Positions 23,660 to 33,568 of a stretch of DNA of 64,000 bases are shown here, one piece after another. Position 1 is the first letter of the stretch. Each line of letters begins with the position of its first letter. The notes beneath the pieces are model-generated. The model was not told where the DNA came from, searched no databases, and saw only the letters and a program-made list of their open reading frames with translations. Made by a program: the position numbers and the translations under genes. This DNA comes from Candidatus Latescibacterota bacterium (GTDB lineage Bacteria; Latescibacterota; UBA2968; GCA-2709665), in assembly GCA_965222075.1 (NCBI GenBank), contig OZ244937.1, positions 928,001 to 992,000 of the forward strand, in the 5' to 3' direction.

Positions 23660-26161
23660 TTGCTTATGGATGCGTACGAACCGTTGGATCTGTCTGCGTT
23701 TTGCAACGCAGGGCTGGAGGCGCTGGGTGGGGCTGGGGAGACGCCGGTGGGCGCGCAGTCGTTTCAGGGGCTGCCGTTCCGGATCGGCACGGCCGACGGG
23801 GCGGGTGAGCGCTGTTTTGTGGGGTTTGGAGAGGGGTTGCGGGGAGAGGCTTTGAAAATTCCGATCGGGAAGGGGGCGCGGCAGGTGATTGTGGCGCACC
23901 GGCTGCTGGAATCGAAGCTCTTGGAAGGCGGTCCGATCGGGTTGCCGGTGGCTGACTACATCTTTCACCTGGAAGGAAGGGAGACGGTTCGGGTGCCGAT
24001 CCGGGAGCGGTTCGAGATTTCTACCGTGCCGGATGCAGGGGGGGCGCCTTTTGTGGCTTTTCCGGAACGGACGGACAGCCTGCAACCCCGCTGGGAGGGC
24101 CCCTGGGATGCTGCGGGCCGGCGGCAGACGGAATCGAACCGGGGCGGGTCACGGGGGTATGTGCTCTGGGCGTGGGAGAATCCGCAGCCGGACCGGCAGG
24201 TTGAGGCGCTGGAGGTGGTCCCGGCAGGGCCCGGGTTCCTGATCGGGGCGATCACGCTGGGATATGCGGACGAGTACCCCTTCTCCCGGGAGGCGCCCCG
24301 GCCGGTGGTGATTACCCTGCCGCAGGAGAGGGACGCGGAAAAGCGGTTCGACCTTGAGGTCGAGGTGGACCGGGGGATCGCCACCTACCCCTACCCGCTG
24401 CCGGAGCAGCCGGAGGCGTTCCTGGAAGATGCCCGGAAGGGATGGGGAGAGCCGCAGAATTCGAAGAACAGCCCGGCCTGCGTGGAGGTGGCTGCGGTGC
24501 CGTCGGCGACGGTGACCGTGAAAGGGGGGGGCGAGGCGCTGGGGAAGGTGAACTGGGGAGCGTTGGAGGAGAAGGGCAAGGTGGAGACGTCCAGGCTGCG
24601 GGTTTCGGTGGTGAAAGGGGGGCGCAACTGGGTGCATACGCGGGTGGTGGACGACGAGACGGGAAGGCCGGTGCCCTGCCGGGTGCACTTCCGCTCGCCC
24701 GAGGGGATTCCTTATGCGCCGCACGGGCACCACGCGCATGTCAACTCCAACATGGGGACCTGGCATATCGATGTGGGCGGGGATGTGCGGCTGGGACAGA
24801 TTTCGTACGCGTACATCGACGGGACGTGCCAGGGGTGGCTGCCCCGGGGAGAGGTGATGGTGGACGTTGCCCGGGGCTATGAGTACGAGCCGCTGCGCGC
24901 AAAGGTGGAGGTCAAACCCGGGCAGCGGGAGCTGGAGCTCAGGTTGAAGCGGTGGTGTCATATGAACCGGGACCGCTGGTTCAGTGGGGATTCGCACGTT
25001 CACTTCCTGTCCACGCAGGGCAGCCACACAGAGGCGCAGGGGGAGGACCTGAACGTGGTGAACCTGCTGCCGTCACAGTGGGGCAGCCTGTTTACGAACA
25101 CCGAGGAGTTTACGGGGCGGGCGAGTGTGTCGCCCGACGGGAACAGCATTGTTTATGTGGGGTCGGAGAACCGGCAGCACTTTTTGGGGCACCTGATCCT
25201 GCTGGGGCTGAAGGAGACGGTGATGCCCTGGTGCTCCGACGGACCGGGCGAGGCGGAGTTGGGGGGAACGCTGGAGGTGACGATGTCGGACTGGGCGGAT
25301 CGGTGCCACGCGCAGGGGGGGACGGTGATCATCCCGCACCTGCCCAACCCGAATGGGGAGCCGGCCACGCTGATTGCCACGGGGCGCGCGGATGCGGTGG
25401 AGATGCTCAGGCACGGGACGTATAACCATCTGGAGTACTACCGCTATCTGAACTGCGGGTACAGGCTGCCGCTGGTGGGCGGCACGGATAAGATGAGCAG
25501 CGACGTTCCGGTGGGGATCTACAGAACGTACGTCCACATCCCGGCGGATGAGCCGTTTACTTATGAGAGCTGGTGCAGGAATCTGACCGCCGGGCGGACA
25601 TTCCACAGCGGCGGGCCGATCGTCCGCTTTACCGTGGACGGTCACCAGATCGGAGATACGATCAATCTGCCGGGCAATGGAGGGACGGTGGAGGTCACCG
25701 CCGAGGCGGAGTCGATCCTGCCGATCCATACGCTGGAGGTGGTGCAGGAGGGCCGCGTGGTGGCCTCGGCGGATGAGCCGAAGGGGACGCGGAAGTTAAG
25801 CCTGAAGGCAAAGGTGAAGGTGGAGGGGCACTCCTGGCTGGCCGCCCGATGCGGGGGGCCGGGCTATACGGCAGTGCCGCACTTAGACGGCTGGGGACGG
25901 GGCCTGATGGCGCATACGTCTCCGATCTATGTCGCCTGCGGCGGAGCGTGGTGGATGTTCAACCAGGAGGCGGCGCAGTATATGCTCACGCTGGTGGAGG
26001 GCTGCATTTCCTACATCCGGCAGACGAGCCGCCAGGACCGGCCGGGAGAGGTCACGCACCACCACGGGGAGGAGGACCACCTGGCCTATCTGGAGAGGCC
26101 GTTTGCAGAGGCCCGGGCGGCGATCCACAAACGGATGCACCAGCTGGGTATTCCACACTGA
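23660..26161 (+). CDS. CehA/McbA-family metallohydrolase (PHP-like domain)
   Basis: WFSGDSHVH, ENRQHFLGH, GGTDKM; typical ~830 aa architecture. Confidence 0.75.
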   Translation: MLMDAYEPLDLSAFCNAGLEALGGAGETPVGAQSFQGLPFRIGTADGAGERCFVGFGEGLRGEALKIPIGKGARQVIVAHRLLESKLLEGGPIGLPVADYIFHLEGRETVRVPIRERFEISTVPDAGGAPFVAFPERTDSLQPRWEGPWDAAGRRQTESNRGGSRGYVLWAWENPQPDRQVEALEVVPAGPGFLIGAITLGYADEYPFSREAPRPVVITLPQERDAEKRFDLEVEVDRGIATYPYPLPEQPEAFLEDARKGWGEPQNSKNSPACVEVAAVPSATVTVKGGGEALGKVNWGALEEKGKVETSRLRVSVVKGGRNWVHTRVVDDETGRPVPCRVHFRSPEGIPYAPHGHHAHVNSNMGTWHIDVGGDVRLGQISYAYIDGTCQGWLPRGEVMVDVARGYEYEPLRAKVEVKPGQRELELRLKRWCHMNRDRWFSGDSHVHFLSTQGSHTEAQGEDLNVVNLLPSQWGSLFTNTEEFTGRASVSPDGNSIVYVGSENRQHFLGHLILLGLKETVMPWCSDGPGEAELGGTLEVTMSDWADRCHAQGGTVIIPHLPNPNGEPATLIATGRADAVEMLRHGTYNHLEYYRYLNCGYRLPLVGGTDKMSSDVPVGIYRTYVHIPADEPFTYESWCRNLTAGRTFHSGGPIVRFTVDGHQIGDTINLPGNGGTVEVTAEAESILPIHTLEVVQEGRVVASADEPKGTRKLSLKAKVKVEGHSWLAARCGGPGYTAVPHLDGWGRGLMAHTSPIYVACGGAWWMFNQEAAQYMLTLVEGCISYIRQTSRQDRPGEVTHHHGEEDHLAYLERPFAEARAAIHKRMHQLGIPH

Positions 26162-26219: not shown

Positions 26220-26262
26220 ACAGAAGGGCCTTCGGCAGTTTGTTCGCTGAGGGCCCTTCTGT
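26220..26262. terminator. Long hairpin, possible terminator
   Basis: ACAGAAGGGCCTTCGGC / GCTGAGGGCCCTTCTGT inverted repeat between convergent genes. Confidence 0.55.
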
Positions 26263-26342: not shown

Positions 26343-26546
26343 CTACTTCGCTTCCAATGCCTCATAAATACTCGCAAACTGCTCCAACGCCGCCTCCAGG
26401 TTTTCGGTAATCTCAGCGGCGATCACATCCGGTTTGGGAAGAGTCTCAGACGCATTGAGGCTTTCATCTCGCAGGACATTGCAGTAATTCCACAATTTTT
26501 GGACAATAGTTGATGAATCGTTTAATCCTGAGAATCCTGATGGCAT
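26343..26546 (-). pseudogene. hsdM: Type I R-M methyltransferase HsdM with near-total internal deletion
   Basis: HsdM N-terminus IVQKLWNYCNVLRD fused in frame to C-terminus DESL...LPKPDVIAAEITENLEAALEQF. Confidence 0.8.
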
Positions 26547-26586
26547 TTTTGTGATTATTCTCCTGTAGTTGGATGTGATAGCAAAT

Positions 26587-26970
26587 TCATGCTATCGGCA
26601 TGATTACCAATTTACTGGCAAGAGCCAGTTTTCTTGCGATGCTCTGACGCTCGCTCTTGTCTGCTGGGAATGGCGTGATATTGGCATGTAGTTCATGAGG
26701 TTGCGTGTCTGGAATGACTTTAAGGTTATAATTATAGACTTGCTCCGCTGAAAGATCTGCCCTTGCTCTCAATGTTCTTTTTCCTTGGACGTATTCCAGC
26801 CCAATCGCCCAAACCTCGCTTTCAGTGAGTGATGAGGTACGATACACAGATATATCCTTGCTATTTGAAGGAGGAATAAACGCCCAAAATTTGACTTCCC
26901 TTTTCATGGCGGAAAATTGACTTTTGGAAAAAATAAAACGGGCGAGTTTCTCACCCGGCAGAACATCCAT
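26587..26970 (-). CDS. Hypothetical protein, possible ADP-ribosyltransferase-fold toxin
   Basis: 127 aa; LARF...AF...ISVYR...HANI pattern recalls R-S-type ART toxins (inference). Confidence 0.45.
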   Translation of the reverse strand: MDVLPGEKLARFIFSKSQFSAMKREVKFWAFIPPSNSKDISVYRTSSLTESEVWAIGLEYVQGKRTLRARADLSAEQVYNYNLKVIPDTQPHELHANITPFPADKSERQSIARKLALASKLVIMPIA

Positions 26971-26983
26971 ATCAAATCCTTAA

Positions 26984-27550
26984 TTAAAGGAGGAGGTTTA
27001 ACAACGTTAGAAAACCTCGCAACATGGCAGTATCTGATAATGCACAGACTCCTTCGACTTGACGTTTGTCATTAAAAAAAGCACCGTAGATGACATGATT
27101 ATCTCCATATAGGCCCATCGTCGCTATGCCGTTCTCTGGTCGCCACTCAAATCCAAGGCTACCATCTTCTGCCCAGCCGATGTCCGGCATGGGGACATTG
27201 CACTGAGAGAGCATCTTTAGTAAAGAATGCGCGTCATCGTATGCCGAATCCGAGATAGGATCAATTTCGTTATCCAACGCTGATGCTTCCATAGCCTCTT
27301 GGCGTATCTCCTCTAATTGTTGTTGTGCATAGTCTAGCCAAGAGAAATACTGCTCAAATGCTGAAACCCACCCAATCACATCCTTATCATCTGGCTGGTA
27401 CGCCTGAGTTTGTAGATTTTGTGGTTCCGGATAGTAAGGCCTTGATAGAGGAGCCTGGGGGTTGCTCATGAATTCTATTCCCACTTGATTCTGAAGCCCT
27501 GAGTGGTATTCGGCTTGACGACTGGGGGTGGTCATTATTTTCTCTCCCAT
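26984..27550 (-). CDS. Hypothetical acidic protein
   Basis: Intact AT-rich ORF coupled to its neighbours; PDIGWAEDGSLGFEW motif. Confidence 0.6.
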   Translation of the reverse strand: MGEKIMTTPSRQAEYHSGLQNQVGIEFMSNPQAPLSRPYYPEPQNLQTQAYQPDDKDVIGWVSAFEQYFSWLDYAQQQLEEIRQEAMEASALDNEIDPISDSAYDDAHSLLKMLSQCNVPMPDIGWAEDGSLGFEWRPENGIATMGLYGDNHVIYGAFFNDKRQVEGVCALSDTAMLRGFLTLLNLLL

Positions 27551-28353
27551 ACTTGTGTTTGGATGTGTTCCGTAAACATACTGGTGAATTTTTCGCGAAT
27601 TTCACCATGCGCCGACTTAAACCACGTTATCATCGCGTCGTATTCCGCGTTCTGTGGAAAGCCACGTATTGTAAAATCGGTTTGCAGTGTTTGCCTTTGA
27701 TCAGATACCCTGACCCGATTACCTATGGTCAAGTGTAACCGTCCGTTTAAGTCCTGAATGGGAAATGAGGTCCGCAAAATCATAGATTCGGCACCAGACC
27801 AAAATGAATCCGATGGTTGAGAATTAATAAATAGGTTGTAAATTTTTCCAATGTCAACAAGAGTATTCCAGCCATCCCCATGCATAAGTTGATCGATATA
27901 GGTCAGTTCATATTGCAATGGAGTTACTGCGCCAATTTCCATGTTTCCGATAATTTTGTTAAAGCGGTTATAGAGTTCTTTAAACTTTTCAAAAATGGCT
28001 GAGAATCCGGGATATCTCTGATTTGGCTCGGTTTTACGCCAGTTGAACGTAAATCGATCGCGTTGCACCTGTATGATTTGGTTATTATCTTTGTGAATGA
28101 ACCAAATTCGCGCGAGGTTAGGGAAATTCCCAAAATGCAACTCAGTTTCTTGGTTTGGATTAGGAAAATTTTCCCTTGTGGGCATAACCGGTGGCTGTTC
28201 CGCGATTTCCAAAAACCCCTCTTTTTTTAATTCCTGCCATATTTCGCCAAAATGGGGAGCCAGGAACCTATCGAGAGACTTGAAAAGCACACTCAACACC
28301 ACCTCATCTACGGGTGGTCGCACGAAATCGAGCTTCTTGCGCAGGGTTTCCAT
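27535..28353 (-). CDS. TIGR04255 family protein
   Basis: PPVDEVVLSVLF, RIWF...IIQVQRDRFTFNWRK...YPGF, ELTYID; GGAGG RBS. Confidence 0.75.
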   Translation of the reverse strand: METLRKKLDFVRPPVDEVVLSVLFKSLDRFLAPHFGEIWQELKKEGFLEIAEQPPVMPTRENFPNPNQETELHFGNFPNLARIWFIHKDNNQIIQVQRDRFTFNWRKTEPNQRYPGFSAIFEKFKELYNRFNKIIGNMEIGAVTPLQYELTYIDQLMHGDGWNTLVDIGKIYNLFINSQPSDSFWSGAESMILRTSFPIQDLNGRLHLTIGNRVRVSDQRQTLQTDFTIRGFPQNAEYDAMITWFKSAHGEIREKFTSMFTEHIQTQVWERK

Positions 28354-28484
28354 AATGTGTCACCTCCCGGATTTGAGATACGTTTCCTTATTAAGTTGTA
28401 ACGCCTGATTTTAACGTAAGGTTTCACCAAATGCACCGCTAATGCTCTGCCAGTACTGATGGCCCCTTGTTGGGCACCGCATCT

Positions 28485-28850
28485 TCAACGTTCAAATAAC
28501 GCCAATTGCTTTTTGGTTTTCCTTTTGGTCTTCTGCTCGGCTTCCCGTTTAGCCTTCTCTTCTTTGATACGCTCAAGCAGCTTTTCTGCTGGCTCGTCAT
28601 TGGGATCTTGCGGAACCAATTTTCCAGAGAGAGCTTCTTTGAGAATAGATTGGCGGAGAGTTTCAGCGCGTTTGAGTTCGGCGTCAAGGGTCGCTTCGAC
28701 TTCATTGGCGACGGAGAGGCGGCGTTCGACTTCGGGGACGATGCGGCGTTGTTCGGCCAGAGGTGGAAGGGGAATTTCAAAGGTTTCGAGTTGGTTTCCC
28801 GTTACCGCATTAAAGGTTGTTCCTGTGCCTTTGCCCGCGATTTTACTCAT
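28485..28850 (-). pseudogene. hsdS: Type I R-M specificity subunit HsdS, C-terminal fragment
   Basis: GTTF..., IPLPPLAEQRRIV, LRQSILKEALSGKLVPQDPNDEPAEKLLERIK; 5' part missing. Confidence 0.85.
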
Positions 28851-29329
28851 CGAATGTTCCCCCTGCGCGGTGACCGGCCCATCGGTCAATGCGAAATCTC
28901 ACTGCTCGTCCGGGCTGAGTGAGCGGACTTCGCGGACTTCCCGGGCATCCTGCTCAATCACCCTCGGTCCAGGTTCGACGGGCGGCCTCTTGCGGAACTT
29001 CGATGGGCAACTGTGGCCAATCCGCCGCGATGCTCGAGAACCGCTTGCAGCGGGAAGGCCATTGCCTCTGCGAGGATGGTGATGGTAAAAAACAGCTAAA
29101 GCTTTACCGGCTTTCAGGCCGGGAGAGAGATGAGAGGGTCGTTATGGGAAACCCTGGTAACACGGTCCGGCGAAAATTCTCAATTCGAGAATCGCTCTAA
29201 GTGGTACGTTCACCCTCAAACGCAAAAGCGTTTTGAGAAGCCCGAGTGGGTCATGCTGTCTCAAACAATCAGCGCGTCTTCGAATGCAGACGGTGGAGCG
29301 CGCGTAGCAGGACACGGACCTGTACGATC

Positions 29330-29358
29330 TTGACATCCCCAATCATATTCCGTATATT
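29330..29358 (+). promoter_or_regulatory. Sigma70-type promoter of the metal-uptake operon
   Basis: TTGACA-17 bp-TATATT. Confidence 0.65.
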
Positions 29359-29405
29359 TCTGCCGTACACCTTGATGCGGTCTACCCTCTCTTGAGGTTG
29401 ATAGG

Positions 29406-29681
29406 GTGCTTTATTCTTCCAAACGGCTACATCCTGCTGCCTTTCTCGTTCTGTTGATTTTCGTGGCCTGCCTGGCGGTCTTCGTACTTACCGCTTTCCC
29501 CGGTCACGATCACCAACAACAATGTGCTATTTGCGTATGGTTCAATAACCTGACCATTTGTTTGCCGGTCGTATTGCTATTCCAGCTTTGCTTCCTGCGT
29601 TTCCGGCAATGTTTTTCCTCATGCCAATTCCTTCGCATTTCCCTCCTTCTTCCTGATGGACGTGCCCCTCCTGTGTTCTGA
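29406..29681 (+). CDS. DUF2946-like leader protein with His/CxxC and C-terminal RAPP
   Basis: N-terminal hydrophobic segment, HDHQQQCAIC, ends GRAPPVF; upstream of a lipoprotein and TBDR. Confidence 0.7.
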   Translation: MLYSSKRLHPAAFLVLLIFVACLAVFVLTAFPGHDHQQQCAICVWFNNLTICLPVVLLFQLCFLRFRQCFSSCQFLRISLLLPDGRAPPVF

Positions 29682-29992
29682 ACCATCCTCCCGTGTTCTG
29701 AAGACACATCCTTCATATTTTCCCCAGCATTTACAATCCGTTATACCAGGCCAACGCTATGCCTGTGTTTACGCCCAAAGGTATTTTCGGTACCTGTGAG
29801 CGTCAGACGGTTTTGAATTTCCCGCGATTGTTTTTCAGCAATTCTATCTGTTTCCGGTAGAACCTGCTCTTGTAAATGCCGGTAAACTATCCACGAAATC
29901 GGCATAATCCCGGTATCGCATCTGACCAACGACAGATGTCCCGGCTGGATCCCGGCGTAGGTTCAATCCCATCCATTCAGGAGACCCTTAAA

Positions 29993-31233
29993 ATGAAAAC
30001 GTTTCATCACCCCATTGCCGCAGCGGCGGTTTTGGCCCTGTTCGTGGCCGGCTGTGGCAAAGACGATCCCATATCCCCAGAGGAAGACCATTACGAAGCC
30101 GAAGGCCTCGTGCTTATTGACTCGGGCAACCGATTTTTCCGGTATTTCCGGGGCGAAATCGACTCCGCGACGGCCGGGCGGACATCCTCGAGGTCCCTCA
30201 CGGGCAACTCACCCCCCACTGGAGCATCCGGTTCCTGGATGCGGACGGCAACGAAATGGCGCCCCCCAGCGGTGAAGGCACCAGCTTCACGTGGGTCATC
30301 GCCGACCCGTCGGTCGTGGAAGTTTTCCAGGATGAGGGCGATGAGGGCAAGTTTGACTTCCACCTGCGGGGCCTCGAAGAGGGGGAGACCACCATTGTGC
30401 TGCAGATCGCGCACGAAGGCCACGTGGACTTCCGCACGCAGCCCATTCCCGTGCATGTGGTAGAAGAGTTTGAGGCCGAGGGGCTCGTGCTTATCGACTC
30501 GGGCAACCGATTTTTCCGGTATTTCCGGGGCGAAATCGACTCCGACGACGGTCGGGCGGAGTACCTTGAAGCGCCGATTGGGCTGACCGCTCACTGGAGT
30601 GTCAAATTCCTGGACAGCCACGGTGATGAAATAGACCCACCCGACGATCCCGAATTCACCTTCGGCTGGACCATTGACGATCCGTCGGTCGTGGAAGTTT
30701 TCCAGGATGAGGGCGACGAGGGCAAGTTTGACTTCCACCTGCGGGGCCTCAAAGAGGGCGAAACCACCATCATGTTACAGGTCGACCACGAAGGCCACGT
30801 GGACTTCCGCACGCTGCCCATTCCCGTACATGTGGTGTCACAGGCCGGCCAACACGGCGAACCCGTGGGTCTGCGCCTCAAAGACGAAGACAGCGGTCAG
30901 GTGCTCGTCCAGGCATCCCGTGAGGGGAAGGGCGACTCCACTGGTGTTCTGGCGGTCGCCGTGGGCGATACCACCGACCATATCGCGACCGTTTTTTTCG
31001 ACGATCAAGACGTGGAATTCCAGCCTGAAGCACCGGACGAGACCCTGGGCATTGCAGTGGCGGACACATCGTTGCTCGGCATCGATCCGCCGGTGGCGCC
31101 CGACTACTGGGCTTTCAAACTCATCGGCAAAAAGGCCGGGACCACGACGATTACCCTGTCCATCGTGCACGATGGACAGGCCGAACACACATTCGTGCCG
31201 ATTTCGGTGGTGATCAGCGCGCAGTCGCAATAA
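29993..31233 (+). CDS. His/acidic lipoprotein with a duplicated domain (1-bp frameshift near 30167)
   Basis: Lipobox VAGC; two ~125-aa repeats (EAEGLVLIDSG...HEGHVDFRT); copy 1 lacks one base relative to copy 2. Confidence 0.7.
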
Positions 31234-31276
31234 ACACAGGGGAGAAGGCTGGGCTGCCTTCTCCCCGTTCACAACG

Positions 31277-33568
31277 TTGGGGGTTCATACAATGCTCGAT
31301 ACACTCAGGATAAAGCGTCTCCTGTCGACCGGAGATGTCAGCGCCCTGTTCCCCGGAAGGTTGGGCTTGAAATGGACGGCATCTGTGCTTTTCTGCCTGT
31401 TCTTCGTTCCCGCGATCAGTGCGGCGGGCAAAACCGTGTTGATCGAAGGGTATGTTTTCGACAGCGAAACCCGGCACCCCATCGAAAACGTCAACATCCA
31501 GCCTGGTGATCATGCAGTGGGCACAACCACCGATGAACGAGGCCGCTTTGTCCTGCACCTGTCGCAGGATGTCTATCGCCTGTCTTTTACTCACGTCGGA
31601 TATCAAAAAAAGCACCATGAAGTGACCGTCTCAGGCACAAAACATCCCATCCTCTATGTCGAAATGGCCCCGCTGGCCCTTCAAATGGACCTCATTGACG
31701 TTGTGGCAGAATCCGCCGAAACCCGCTTTGAGGAACTCCACGAGACCACCGGCGTGCTCTCCGGCGACGAGCTCCGGCAGAAATACGCGCTCACGCTTGC
31801 CGAAACCATGAAAAACGAAATCGGCGTTGCCATCCGCAGTATGGGGCCTGCGCCTGCCCGCCCGGTCATACGCGGCCTCAGCGGCGACCGCATACAGATC
31901 AATGTAGACGGCATGCAGACTCAAGATCTGTCCGCCACCTCGGCCGATCACGCCGTCACCCTTGAATCCTTCAACGCGAAACGCCTCGAAATCATCCGGG
32001 GGCCTCGCACCCTGCTTCACACCGCTACCGCCGTTGGCGGGGTTATCAACGTTGTCAAACACAAAATCCCCGATGTCCACCCCCAGCGCGTCTTCGGCAG
32101 CGTCGGCGCCTACGGAGAAACGGTCAACCGGGGCTATTTCTCATCCGCCTCCGTCACCGCGCCCGTAGGCCCGCTCGCACTTTATGCCGAAACCACGTAC
32201 CGCGATACCCGGGACGTGCAAACCCCCATTGGCAAACTCGACAATACCCCCATCAACACCCGCACCCACACCGTCGGTCTGTCCTACGCGGCCGATCGAG
32301 GCTATATCGGCGCTTCTTTCGATCAATTCGGCACTCAATACGGTATTCCCGGCGGATTTATCGGCGGCCACCCCAACGGCGCAGACCTGGATATCCTGCG
32401 CCGGGTCTTCGACGGCAGGGCGGTCTACCGTTTCGACCGCCGGGTGATCAACAGGGTAGAGGTGGGTTTCACGAAGGCCTTCTATCATCACTTCGAGTTC
32501 GAATCCAGCGGCAGCATCGGGTCCGAGTTTTTGTTCCACGACTACAGCGGCGATTTCAAACTGCACCTGAACACACAGGACCAGACGCAGAACACCGTGC
32601 TTACCGCCGGCTTTGAACACCGCAACCTCAAACTGGGCGCCTTTGTCTTCACCCCACCCACGCGTGAACAAGAGGCCACCGTCGGCCTCTATCACGAGTT
32701 CACCTATCGTCAAATCGAACTTCAGGCCGCCGCCCGCTACACCTACGCCGCCTTTGATCCGCACCCCGATGTTGTTACCAATGTGGGCCTGGATGTAGAC
32801 CGAACCTTTCACACCTGGTCCGCAGCCATCAGCCCGCTTGTGCCCATCACCGATCAGCTGACCGCGGGCGTCGGCGTCAGCCGCTCCCAGCGCGTGCCCA
32901 CCATCGAAGAACTCTACAACGAGGGTCCGCACCTGGCCGCGTACACCTTTGAAGTGGGCAATGTCCATCTCAATGCTGAAAAGGGCTTCGGCCTGGAAGC
33001 CTTTTTCCATTATCTGCAACCGGGCCTGGACCTGGTCTTCACCGGCTTCTGGAACGAATTTGGCAGTTATATCGCTCCGCGCAATACCGGAGAGATCAAT
33101 TTCGCCCAGCTTCTCCCCATCTACGCTTCCGATGGTGTTGCCGCGCGAATGCTGGGCCTGGAAATGCACCTGGGGTGGCGTCCGAATACCCGTCTAAACC
33201 TGGAATTCAACGGCAGCTACGTGCGCGGACAGAACCGCGATGAGCATTTGCCCCTGCCCGAAATGCCCCCGCTCAAATTTGCCGGCAGCACAACCTACCG
33301 GCACCCCTGGCTTACTGTGGGAGGAACTGCGGAATTCGCCGCCGGACAGAAGCGCGTGGATATATTCGAAGACCCTACGGACGGCTATACCGTCTTTGGG
33401 GTCTACGCCCAGCGCAACATCCTCACCGACCATACCCGCCATAGCCTCATCCTGTCCGTAGACAACCTTTTCGATACGGAATACCGCAACCACCTCTCAC
33501 GCATCCGGTCCGTGATGCCCGAAACCGGCCGAAGCCTTAAGCTGTACTATAAGATGTATTTCTTTTAA
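31277..33568 (+). CDS. TonB-dependent receptor, ZnuD-like (probable Zn/Ni uptake)
   Basis: CarboxypepD-like N-domain, RPVIRGLSGDR, SADHAVT, EGPHLA, YRNHLSRI, C-terminal Phe. Confidence 0.88.
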   Translation: MGVHTMLDTLRIKRLLSTGDVSALFPGRLGLKWTASVLFCLFFVPAISAAGKTVLIEGYVFDSETRHPIENVNIQPGDHAVGTTTDERGRFVLHLSQDVYRLSFTHVGYQKKHHEVTVSGTKHPILYVEMAPLALQMDLIDVVAESAETRFEELHETTGVLSGDELRQKYALTLAETMKNEIGVAIRSMGPAPARPVIRGLSGDRIQINVDGMQTQDLSATSADHAVTLESFNAKRLEIIRGPRTLLHTATAVGGVINVVKHKIPDVHPQRVFGSVGAYGETVNRGYFSSASVTAPVGPLALYAETTYRDTRDVQTPIGKLDNTPINTRTHTVGLSYAADRGYIGASFDQFGTQYGIPGGFIGGHPNGADLDILRRVFDGRAVYRFDRRVINRVEVGFTKAFYHHFEFESSGSIGSEFLFHDYSGDFKLHLNTQDQTQNTVLTAGFEHRNLKLGAFVFTPPTREQEATVGLYHEFTYRQIELQAAARYTYAAFDPHPDVVTNVGLDVDRTFHTWSAAISPLVPITDQLTAGVGVSRSQRVPTIEELYNEGPHLAAYTFEVGNVHLNAEKGFGLEAFFHYLQPGLDLVFTGFWNEFGSYIAPRNTGEINFAQLLPIYASDGVAARMLGLEMHLGWRPNTRLNLEFNGSYVRGQNRDEHLPLPEMPPLKFAGSTTYRHPWLTVGGTAEFAAGQKRVDIFEDPTDGYTVFGVYAQRNILTDHTRHSLILSVDNLFDTEYRNHLSRIRSVMPETGRSLKLYYKMYFF

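What the first reader, a model, noticed from the sequence alone, without database searches (positions are those of the whole stretch)
26343..28889. Intact TIGR04255 / acidic protein / ART-like triplet inside a destroyed type I R-M locus: candidate defence system
Seen: three tightly packed, AT-rich, uninterrupted genes lie between an hsdS fragment and an hsdM reduced to 67 aa. Established: the interior of hsd operons is a hotspot for anti-phage genes such as prrC. Inference: the 127-aa protein has an R...SV...H pattern recalling R-S-type ADP-ribosyltransferase toxins, the 188-aa acidic protein could be its antitoxin, and TIGR04255 a chaperone or sensor, similar in logic to CmdTAC toxin-antitoxin-chaperone systems. 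Survival of the triplet while the R-M genes decayed fits addiction or selection.
Basis: inference. Interest (0 to 1): 0.75.

Follow-up and report, generated by a model that had tools for sequence, protein, structure and literature searches.

The report
ART-fold toxin–antitoxin cassette with TIGR04255
Three intact small genes sitting in the wreck of a restriction-modification operon look like a mobile toxin–antitoxin-type module whose toxin has the fold of NAD-using ADP-ribosyltransferases, a kind of candidate phage-defence cassette that has been predicted by others but never tested.

Summary
On the minus strand lie an hsdS C-terminal fragment, a 272-aa TIGR04255 protein, a 188-aa acidic protein (p188, pI 4.2), a 127-aa basic protein (p127, pI 9.6), and a 67-aa hsdM remnant that is an in-frame fusion of its N- and C-termini. 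The triplet has 41-47% GC in a 57-69% GC neighbourhood.

The conserved C-domain of p188 precedes a p127 homolog in 40 of 40 related loci. It is predicted to bind p127 (ipSAE 0.90, best control 0.01).

TIGR04255 is present in 15 of 40 loci. Only there does p188 carry its conserved N-terminal tail. The TIGR04255 model resembles TBP, AdoMetDC and guanido-kinase folds; SecB did not appear among the matches.

In 21 of 40 loci the module sits between intact hsdS and hsdM. Both pair proteins weakly match PADLOC's untested candidate PDC-M32.

The most likely reading is a mobile toxin–antitoxin or abortive-infection cassette, with TIGR04255 as an accessory acting through the antitoxin tail. No function has been tested. 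This is a new variant of a known kind.

The parts
28485..28889 (-). hsdS remnant (134-aa ORF). Only the C-terminal conserved region and part of the second target-recognition domain remain, about residues 340-443 of a 495-aa HsdS.
   Evidence: Specificity_I E 5.5e-33, profile positions 346-458/459; Methylase_S E 1.5e-5; tblastn with full HsdS of L030, L038 and L007.
27535..28353 (-). TIGR04255 family protein, 272 aa, pI 6.4. The predicted fold has two repeats with a curved beta-sheet and resembles TBP, AdoMetDC and guanido-kinase folds. It is the accessory first gene of the triplet.
   Evidence: 69.7 bits, cut-off 30; 3491 representatives at E<=1e-3; invariant E17, Q95, Q97, Y114, Y152; pLDDT 93.7; fold matches.
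26984..27550 (-). p188, an acidic protein (pI 4.19) and putative antitoxin. The N-terminal tail (about residues 1-70; motifs ExEFM and LQTxxY) is found only with TIGR04255. The conserved C-domain (about residues 74-188; WAEDGSLGFEWRP motif) is predicted to bind p127.
   Evidence: 212 homologs; C-domain conserved; PDC-M32A: window E 6e-4, 26 of 44 members, best 2.1e-6; ipSAE 0.90 against 0.01; tail co-varies with TIGR04255; pI.
26587..26970 (-). p127, a basic protein (pI 9.6) with an ADP-ribosyltransferase-superfamily fold that resembles a stand-alone Tpt1/KptA NAD+ lobe. Putative toxin. S41, R70, H95 and N97 are invariant.
26343..26546 (-). Mini-hsdM (67 aa): an in-frame fusion of HsdM residues 3-28 and 443-483. 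The methyltransferase domain is deleted.
   Evidence: MTase_I E 1.8e-10, profile 438-479/487; (different deletion junctions in L033 and L035).
26220..26262 (.). GC-rich hairpin (17-nt arms, 88% complementary, 9-nt loop). It lies between the end of the minus-strand gene row and the convergent plus-strand gene that ends at 26161. It may be a shared terminator; this is inference only.
   Evidence: inverted repeat I1; ORF 23660..26161 on the plus strand.

Best explanation
The locus is a horizontally acquired toxin–antitoxin-type (abortive-infection-type) cassette left inside a decayed type I R-M operon.

p127 is the effector. It is a minimal, stand-alone ADP-ribosyltransferase-fold protein, closest in shape to the NAD+ lobe of Tpt1/KptA. 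It is inferred to use NAD+ either to ADP-ribosylate a cellular target or to destroy NAD+. A nucleic-acid target is my favoured guess, given its nearest structural relatives and its basic charge.

p188 is the neutraliser. Its conserved acidic C-domain binds p127 directly.

TIGR04255 is translationally coupled to p188. It is an optional third component that is inferred to act on the N-terminal tail p188 carries only in its presence, either stabilising or releasing the antitoxin in response to a ligand or a phage cue. The logic resembles toxin–antitoxin–chaperone systems such as CmdTAC, but the component is unrelated.

The cassette family habitually lodges between hsdS and hsdM. Here the R-M genes decayed while the cassette stayed intact.

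Shown in silico: the gene models, the folds, the conserved gene order, the predicted binding and the tail/TIGR04255 co-variation. Inferred: toxicity, NAD+ chemistry, the target, the TIGR04255 mechanism and the defence role.

For: Pairing. A p188-C homolog lies at most 430 nt upstream of a p127 homolog, on the same strand, in 40 of 40 loci. The charges are opposite, pI 4.19 against 9.60.

Complex prediction. ipSAE was 0.90 in all three runs and the best of three controls was 0.01. That mark was reached by 116 of 157 solved complexes and 2 of 215 mismatched pairs. The runs agree in at least 97% of contacts and the partner pLDDT is at least 90. The counts hold only roughly because my own alignments were used. 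No solved relative is detectable by sequence for either chain, so a pass from memory is unlikely.

TIGR04255 link. The genes overlap by 16 nt. Of 16 p188-like tblastn hits with TIGR04255 just upstream, 15 align from residue 30 or earlier; of 55 without it, none do (the hits are related, so the Fisher p of 1.7e-14 overstates the case). The tail carries conserved motifs. Triplets recur at greater distance in L065 and L068 (p127-like E 1.8e-14 and 5.3e-13) and in L151 and L157. In the window's phylum, 8 of the 11 genomes with p127 have TIGR04255 0.5-1.1 kb upstream.

Defence and mobility context. In 21 of 40 loci the module lies between hsdS and hsdM. Piwi and Schlafen genes lie nearby. Both pair proteins hit the two subunits of the same PADLOC candidate, PDC-M32A in 26 of 44 members and PDC-M32B in 16 of 38. 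PDCs were derived from genes embedded in BREX, DISARM and type I R-M systems (bioRxiv 10.1101/2024.01.29.577857, sections 9-10 read). The cassette has 37-49% GC everywhere, including in 53-62% GC hosts. Its distribution is sporadic, 11 of 151 genomes.

Survival. hsdM carries internal deletions with three different junctions in the window, L033 and L035, each beside an intact triplet.
Against: There is no experimental datum of any kind.

No canonical ART catalytic triad is present. The first-strand residue is R in 28, H in 4 and Y in 6 of 38 sequences, and there is no conserved Glu; the fifth strand carries H95-A-N97 instead. p127 may therefore only bind NAD+ or ADP-ribose, or may do different chemistry.

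The profile of the p127 family finds no ART family by sequence in the PDB or Pfam.

The predicted interface on p127 (residues 15-37, 64-65, 105-117) does not list the invariant S41, R70, H95 or N97. Active-site occlusion is therefore not shown.

TIGR04255 is absent from 25 of 40 loci, and the PADLOC matches are weak (window E 6e-4 and 2.9e-3). TIGR04255's invariant polar residues fit an enzyme at least as well as a chaperone.

The promoter and terminator scan was no better than shuffles.

The hhalign comparisons of p127 and p188 profiles with the third and second genes of other TIGR04255 operons were not significant.
Confidence: 0.55

Rival explanations
1. This is a pure addiction module. The same toxin–antitoxin pair exists only to stabilise itself and the island that carries it, with no role in phage defence. 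On this reading the hsd location reflects a recombination hotspot, not function.
For: The cassette outlived its R-M host operon three times, in the window, L033 and L035. In the Latescibacterota loci L001, L002 and L034, whose upstream flank is syntenic with the window's, it sits without any hsd remnant. Tandem pair arrays and stray hsdM 5' fragments point to recombination-driven spread.
Against: Embedding between hsdS and hsdM in 21 of 40 loci, the Piwi and Schlafen neighbours and the link to a guilt-by-embedding defence candidate are all typical of defence cargo. Addiction and defence are also not mutually exclusive.
Confidence: 0.2
2. The pair is an accessory of the type I R-M enzyme rather than a self-contained toxin–antitoxin. 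One option is a PrrC-like latent effector held in check by the Hsd complex. Another is a regulator or modifier of HsdM/HsdS.
For: The position between hsdS and hsdM on the same strand is conserved in 21 of 40 loci. PrrC sets a precedent for an effector embedded in an hsd operon and silenced by it (recalled; also stated in the discussion passage of bioRxiv 10.1101/2024.01.29.577857).
Against: Fourteen of 40 loci show neither an upstream hsdS nor an hsdM downstream of p127 (L010 does carry a full-length hsdM upstream of its module). The window, L033 and L035 keep intact cassettes beside dead hsdM. p127 has its own dedicated, strongly predicted partner. Pairs also occur downstream of hsdM and in tandem.
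Confidence: 0.1
3. p127 is not a toxin. It is a benign NAD+/ADP-ribose-binding or Tpt1-like nucleic-acid phosphate-modifying or repair enzyme, and p188 is a regulatory or substrate-recruiting subunit.
For: The closest structures are Tpt1/KptA NAD+ lobes, which are not toxins. p127 lacks the catalytic Glu of toxin ARTs. The predicted interface does not name the invariant residues.
Against: p127 lacks the Tpt1 RNA lobe, which carries three of the four essential tetrad residues (PMC6333775 passages; model aligned to chain 88-180 only). The other features fit conflict systems, not housekeeping: sporadic distribution (11 of 151 genomes), foreign GC, tandem amplification, the hsd context, and the arrangement of an acidic upstream partner with a basic downstream protein.
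Confidence: 0.1

Closest known systems
PADLOC phage defence candidate PDC-M32 (a two-gene candidate; PDCs were derived from genes embedded in BREX, DISARM and type I R-M systems and are untested; Payne et al., bioRxiv 10.1101/2024.01.29.577857)
   Same: The two adjacent window proteins hit the two subunits of the same candidate in the right order. p188 hits PDC-M32A (window E 6e-4; 26 of 44 family members, best 2.1e-6). p127 hits PDC-M32B (window E 2.9e-3; 16 of 38, best 7.7e-4). Both are embedded in type I R-M.
   Different: The matches are weak. The PDC-M32A profile is 375 positions long and p188 matches only positions ~269-346, so p188 (188 aa; 130-160 aa in most relatives) lacks the first ~260 positions. 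TIGR04255 hits no PADLOC model. The supplementary tables that define PDC-M32 could not be read because bioRxiv supplements are closed. That 'M' stands for multi-gene is my inference from the text.
Toxin–antitoxin–chaperone systems, in particular CmdTAC (an mRNA ADP-ribosyltransferase toxin, an antitoxin and a SecB-like chaperone; PMC11618068 and bioRxiv 10.1101/2024.02.24.581848, seen as search listing and abstracts only)
   Same: There are three genes. The toxin has an ART-type fold. The antitoxin carries an extra segment that is present only when the third protein is present. This mirrors the chaperone-addiction logic.
   Different: The third protein's model resembles TBP-, AdoMetDC- and guanido-kinase-like folds, and no SecB chain appeared among its listed matches. 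The extra segment is N-terminal. The gene order is accessory, antitoxin, toxin. No sequence relationship to CmdT, CmdA or CmdC was tested.
Tpt1/KptA RNA 2'-phosphotransferase (NAD+ lobe)
   Different: p127 has no N-terminal RNA (winged-helix) lobe and no Arg-His-Arg-Arg tetrad. Its first strand has no HGT motif and reads [A/T]-[R/H/Y]-F instead. Identity in the structural alignment is 7-10%.
ART-fold toxins of type II toxin–antitoxin systems: DarT (DarTG), RES (RES-Xre), MbcT (MbcTA) and ParT (ParST)
   Different: They match less well than Tpt1. p188 has no macrodomain, Xre-HTH or other Pfam domain. The conserved residues of p127 (S41, R70, H95, N97) do not reproduce the R-E-S or DarT motifs; those motifs are recalled, not tested.
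PrrC and other cargo genes embedded in type I R-M operons
   Same: The location inside an hsd operon is a conserved habit of the family, seen in 21 of 40 loci.
   Different: The proteins are unrelated. Here the cargo has its own neutralising partner and survives without the R-M genes.

Membership tests
ADP-ribosyltransferase (ART) superfamily | Split beta-sheet NAD+-binding fold | tested here: met
ADP-ribosyltransferase (ART) superfamily | Canonical catalytic triad (H-Y-E or R-S-E) on strands 1, 2 and 5 | tested here: not met
   In one search, strand 1 carries R in 28, H in 4 and Y in 6 of 38 sequences. Strand 2 carries S41 in 38 of 38. Strand 5 carries H95-A-N97 in 38 of 38, with no conserved Glu. 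Assignment to strands comes from the model's secondary structure, not from a residue-level superposition.
ADP-ribosyltransferase (ART) superfamily | Binds NAD+ and transfers or hydrolyses ADP-ribose | not testable with these tools
   This needs biochemistry.
Tpt1/KptA | Two lobes: an N-terminal RNA (winged-helix) lobe plus a C-terminal NAD+ lobe | tested here: not met
   p127 is 127 aa and aligns only to chain residues 88-180. No longer fused forms were found (which is weak evidence by the tool's own note).
Tpt1/KptA | Arg-His-Arg-Arg tetrad and HGT motif | tested here: not met
   Three tetrad residues lie in the lobe p127 lacks (PMC6333775 passages). The first strand of p127 reads L-[A/T]-[R/H/Y]-F-I.
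TIGR04255 (NCBIfam) | Score above the curated cut-off over the full length | tested here: met
   69.7 bits against a cut-off of 30; residues 11-266 against profile positions 3-249/252.
PADLOC PDC-M32 | Adjacent genes matching subunit A and subunit B | tested here: inconclusive
   Both match the right subunits, but weakly (E 6e-4 and 2.9e-3; 26 of 44 and 16 of 38 family members at E<=0.01). Only the C-terminal third of the A profile is covered.
Toxin–antitoxin–chaperone (TAC/CmdTAC) | SecB-like chaperone as the third component | tested here: inconclusive
Toxin–antitoxin–chaperone (TAC/CmdTAC) | The antitoxin carries an extension that depends on the third protein | tested here: met
   This is met by analogy only. 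The N-terminal tail is present in 15 of 16 p188-like hits with TIGR04255 upstream and in 0 of 55 without it.
Type II toxin–antitoxin pair | Adjacent co-oriented genes, an acidic and a basic partner, and direct binding | tested here: met
   Adjacency holds in 40 of 40 loci. pI is 4.19 against 9.60. ipSAE is 0.90 against a best control of 0.01. Toxicity and neutralisation are not testable here.
Functional type I R-M system | Intact HsdM with an N6_Mtase domain, a full HsdS, and HsdR | tested here: not met
   HsdM is reduced to residues 3-28 plus 443-483. HsdS is reduced to ~340-443. tblastn with the C-terminal 115-aa HsdR piece of L007 found no match in the window.

The most novel reading that the evidence does not exclude
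TIGR04255 proteins (at least 3491 cluster representatives) may define a large, undescribed class of three-gene conflict modules.

In this reading the first protein is a TBP/AdoMetDC-like sensor or chaperone with a conserved polar site. It is translationally coupled, typically by a 15-21-nt overlap, to an adaptor or antitoxin whose disordered N-terminal tail it controls. An interchangeable effector follows: the ART-fold p127 family here, a HEPN protein in L057, and unknown ~135-aa and ~190-aa families elsewhere.

The window's triplet would be one member. PADLOC's PDC-M32, and the pairs without TIGR04255 in Poribacteria, would be reduced relatives.
Probability: 0.35. Interest if true: 0.8.

Novelty: new variant of a known kind. 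Interest (0 to 1): 0.62.

Why it matters
If confirmed, four things would follow.

First, it would add a minimal ADP-ribosyltransferase-fold effector of about 127 aa, essentially a free-standing Tpt1-like NAD+ lobe, to the toxins used in bacterial conflict systems.

Second, it would give a first functional context to TIGR04255. This is a large family with no Pfam model. No paper in the searched library names it (0 papers for 'TIGR04255').

Third, it would show a toxin–antitoxin–accessory logic built from parts unrelated to SecB-type TAC systems.

Fourth, it documents type I R-M operons of sponge-associated Poribacteria and Latescibacterota as exchange sites for such cassettes, and shows the cassettes outliving the R-M genes. 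This supports the guilt-by-embedding approach to finding defence genes.

Tried and rejected
Sequence-level assignment failed.
- Pfam gives nothing significant for the three proteins.
- PHROGs gives only E~0.02 hits for p188.
- PDB sequence searches with the p127 and p188 profiles and with TIGR04255 give nothing.
- Foldseek alone gave no hit at E<=1e-3 for p127.
- The ESM Atlas only re-found the TIGR04255 family, plus unnamed clusters for the p188 C-domain, some with phage members (score 0.93, a lead only).

Other searches that found nothing:
- No longer, fused forms of p127 (weak evidence).
- No p127 relatives in the plasmid or phage collections.
- Rfam, tRNA and promoter/terminator scans of the locus gave nothing above chance.
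- Direct repeats that might mark island ends are short and weak (D1).

hhalign of the p127 and p188 profiles against the third and second genes of the Mycobacterium plasmid operon and the L073-type operons was not significant. I therefore do not claim that those third genes are p127 homologs. Their second genes do share the PDC-M32A C-terminal match.

The RNA evidence is too thin to use. One sponge metatranscriptome run holds two identical contigs, at 27571-27737 (inside the TIGR04255 gene) and at 29141-29299. The tool notes that DNA can be present in such libraries, so I do not count this as transcription.

SecB did not appear among the TIGR04255 model's listed matches.

The idea that PDC-M32A is a fusion of TIGR04255 with the p188 C-domain fits the lengths but could not be tested. 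TIGR04255 hits no PADLOC model at E<=1.

Earlier-findings look-ups returned nothing.
Full report
**Observation.**
- 28889..28485 (134 aa)
- 28353..27535 (272 aa)
- 27550..26984 (188 aa; 16-nt overlap with the previous gene)
- 26970..26587 (127 aa; 13-nt gap)
- 26546..26343 (67 aa)

The 272-aa protein is a clear TIGR04255 member (69.7 bits, cut-off 30). The 134-aa ORF matches only the last ~110 positions of type I specificity-subunit profiles. The 67-aa ORF matches the last ~40 positions of a type I methyltransferase profile.

I ran tblastn with full-length Hsd proteins from related loci. The 67-aa ORF is HsdM residues 3-28 fused in frame to residues 443-483 of 486, so the methyltransferase domain is gone. 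The hsdS piece is residues ~340-443 of 495.

GC is 0.41-0.47 at 26500-28499, against 0.57-0.69 for the 8.5 kb upstream of 26500. The genome is one 5.36-Mb contig. It holds a single p127 copy and twelve other N6_Mtase matches elsewhere.

Contigs from runs of three different studies reproduce both junctions of the remnant locus with 0-5 differences. The arrangement is therefore real and stable.

**The 127-aa protein (p127).** It belongs to a tight family of 110 hypothetical proteins of ~127-135 aa. Alignment A1 (38 sequences) has invariant S41, R70, H95, A96, N97 and P102, within the motifs SVYR, KARAD and PHELHANITPFP. No Pfam or PDB sequence match exists.

The AlphaFold model is confident (pLDDT 94.9; six strands and three main helices). 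Foldseek alone gave only weak hits, but its top rows were already Tpt1, AvrPphF, RES, NarE and pertussis toxin.

p127 is not a Tpt1. It lacks the RNA lobe, which carries three of the four essential tetrad residues, and it lacks the HGT motif.

It is not a canonical R-S-E enzyme either. The first-strand residue is R in 28, H in 4 and Y in 6 of 38 sequences. S41 on the second strand is invariant. The fifth strand carries H95-A-N97 rather than a Glu.

**The 188-aa protein (p188).** It is acidic (pI 4.19). Its family has 212 hits. The family conserves only the C-terminal ~115 residues, with the motif LEEIRQEAEEA…PMPDIGWAEDGSLGFEWRPENGIATMG…; many relatives are just 130-160 aa.

In all 40 loci recovered with the p127 motif, a p188-C homolog lies at most 430 nt upstream of the p127 homolog on the same strand. 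All 40 loci are from Poribacteria or Latescibacterota MAGs. The scan used a single peptide pattern, so only near relatives could be found.

The complex prediction for p188(70-188) with p127 gave ipSAE 0.90 in all three runs, against a best control of 0.01. That mark was reached by 116 of 157 solved complexes and 2 of 215 mismatched pairs. The runs agree in at least 97% of contacts and the partner pLDDT is at least 90. Because I supplied my own alignments, the counts hold only roughly.

Neither chain has a solved relative detectable by sequence. The interface uses the WAEDGSLGFEWRP block of p188. On p127 it uses residues 15-37, 64-65 and 105-117. The invariant S41, R70, H95 and N97 are not named, so occlusion of a catalytic pocket is not shown.

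**TIGR04255.** The family is large: 3491 representatives at E<=1e-3. Invariant residues are E17, Q95, Q97, Y114 and Y152. R82, N104, W105, E149 and N154 are nearly invariant.

The model (pLDDT 93.7) is a two-repeat alpha/beta protein with a long curved sheet. Foldseek finds TBP (prob 0.99-1.0, E from 2.7e-4, TM 0.27-0.41) and AdoMetDC.

[quoted passage not shown] SecB is not among the listed matches.

Payne et al. report an AdoMetDC-like domain, compared with the same entry 3C6K, at the N-terminus of HEC-07. HEC-07 is one of the nine candidates tested in their guilt-by-embedding study and also carries a RelE-like domain (bioRxiv 10.1101/2024.01.29.577857, section 9).

**Link between TIGR04255 and p188.** TIGR04255 precedes the pair in 15 of 40 loci, and a 19-aa remnant remains in L004.

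Of 16 p188-like tblastn hits with TIGR04255 just upstream, 15 align from query residue 30 or earlier. Of 55 without it, none do (the hits are kin, so the Fisher p overstates). The exception is L039, the most divergent locus.

The tail has conserved motifs: MGx..IM, ExEFM and LQTxxY. In the window, the stop codon of TIGR04255 overlaps both candidate start codons of p188.

In the window's own phylum, p127 occurs in 11 of 151 sampled genomes and TIGR04255 in 39 of 151. Eight of the 11 genomes with p127 have TIGR04255 0.5-1.1 kb upstream on the same strand.

More distant triplets exist. In L065 and L068 the p188-like E-values are 1.6e-4 and 2.9e-5, and the p127-like E-values are 1.8e-14 and 5.3e-13. 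The metagenome loci L151 and L157 are further examples.

**TIGR04255 beyond this module.**
- In 29 other loci of the phylum, about half have a second ORF of 126-245 aa overlapping or abutting TIGR04255, often followed by a third ORF of 105-170 aa.
- In L057 the third gene is a HEPN protein (PF05168, E 1.3e-5).
- A Mycobacterium paragordonae plasmid has TIGR04255, then 180 aa, then 142 aa, with overlapping genes.
- Of 53 metagenome loci with enough downstream sequence, 37 have a second ORF, and in 26 it overlaps TIGR04255 by a near-constant 15-21 nt.
- The commonest second and third genes there have no Pfam or PADLOC match.
- The second genes of L111 (E 3.5e-10), L065, L073 and the Mycobacterium plasmid all hit the same C-terminal region of PDC-M32A as p188 does. 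They therefore share that domain.
- The matching third genes could not be tied to p127 by hhalign.

**Context and history.** Pfam annotation of five related loci gives this order: hsdR (EcoEI_R_C, in L007), hsdS, cargo, hsdM. The cargo comprises a UPF0175 protein, TIGR04255, p188 and p127. A Piwi gene lies next to hsdS in L030 and a Schlafen/AlbA_2 gene lies in L028.

Across the 40 loci, hsdS lies upstream in 23, hsdM lies downstream in 24, both flank the module in 21, and 14 have neither an upstream hsdS nor a downstream hsdM. Eighteen loci have two or more p188 copies. Stray hsdM 5' fragments follow several modules. Together these point to recombination-driven cassette turnover at the hsdS-3'/hsdM-5' interval.

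The cassette has 37-49% GC everywhere. This matches Poribacteria loci (38-48%) but not Latescibacterota loci (53-62%) or the window, and it suggests transfer from a low-GC donor.

The window's upstream flank (29350-33568) is syntenic with the Latescibacterota loci L001, L002 and L034. Those loci carry the triplet but no hsd remnant.

L033 and L035 have internally deleted hsdM genes with junctions different from the window's, each next to an intact triplet. The cassette has thus outlived its R-M host at least three times.

**Relation to known systems.** Both pair proteins weakly but consistently match the two subunits of PADLOC candidate PDC-M32. The paper's text says 145 single- and multi-gene PDCs were derived from genes embedded in BREX, DISARM and type I R-M systems and were not tested.

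A full-text search for 'PDC-M32' found one paper, which merely lists hits in Sinorhizobium prophages. A search for 'TIGR04255' found none.

The nearest mechanistic analogues are the ART-fold toxin–antitoxin toxins (DarT, RES, MbcT, ParT) and the toxin–antitoxin–chaperone system CmdTAC. For CmdTAC I saw only the search listing and abstracts.

**Verdict.** The most likely reading (about 0.55) is a mobile toxin–antitoxin or abortive-infection cassette with three roles:
- p127 is an ART-fold, NAD+-using toxin.
- The p188 C-domain is its directly binding antitoxin.
- TIGR04255 is an optional accessory acting through the p188 tail.

The rival readings are a pure addiction module, an accessory of the R-M enzyme, and a benign Tpt1-like enzyme. 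All functional claims remain inference. Expression, NAD+ and ADP-ribosylation assays, tail-dependence tests and phage plating would decide them.

Noticed in passing
window 29328-29720 (and 29141-29299): A ~390-nt stretch upstream of the hsdS fragment is conserved at 72-78% nucleotide identity with L034:182-573, L002:3475-3803 and L001:3470-3734, with hits in several frames. An RNA-library contig identical to the window lies next to it at 29141-29299. It may be a regulatory or non-coding RNA element of the syntenic flank. Rfam found nothing there.
   Followed up: partly
L011, L016, L019, L028, L032 (Poribacteria loci): p188-p127 pairs occur in tandem arrays, up to three pairs per locus. Short hsdM 5' fragments follow individual modules, as if each cassette insertion duplicated the start of hsdM.
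   Followed up: partly
L030:21-2303; L028:5-1399: A Piwi-domain ORF (a prokaryotic Argonaute candidate) lies directly upstream of hsdS in L030. A Schlafen AlbA_2 + HATPase_c_4 ORF lies in L028. These loci are therefore defence islands.
   Followed up: no
L087-L150 (metagenome TIGR04255 loci): The commonest TIGR04255 operon type has a ~150-180-aa second gene overlapping by ~18 nt. Its third gene is ~190 aa with the conserved motifs TQGD..CP..DvvVmtQaCDL..LCP..VDF..RlRl. Neither gene has a Pfam or PADLOC match.
   Followed up: partly
L161 (NZ_CP095066.1), L162 (NZ_CP006588.1), Hymenobacter plasmids: A protein with the p188-C/PDC-M32A C-terminal-like domain directly follows a DUF4209 protein, and no small third gene follows it. 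In L162 this sits next to a HipA toxin–antitoxin pair.
   Followed up: no
G000:C1:1561045-1561787 (own genome, outside the window): There is a second TIGR04255 copy that appears broken. It gives two partial matches, one containing a TGA.
   Followed up: no
L030:7892-10300, L038:6494-8917, L011:6497-8953: An ~800-aa ORF combining NTP_transf_3 and ARMT1-like damage-control phosphatase domains lies downstream of hsdM, or of a further p188-p127 pair placed after hsdM, in three Poribacteria loci.
   Followed up: no
L057:361-747 (minus strand); L069:444-872 and L070:459-887: TIGR04255 operons also occur with a HEPN-domain third gene (PF05168, E 1.3e-5, in L057). In L069 and L070 the third gene is a 142-aa protein that looks HEPN-like by eye but has no Pfam hit, and it follows an acidic ~205-aa second gene.
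   Followed up: partly
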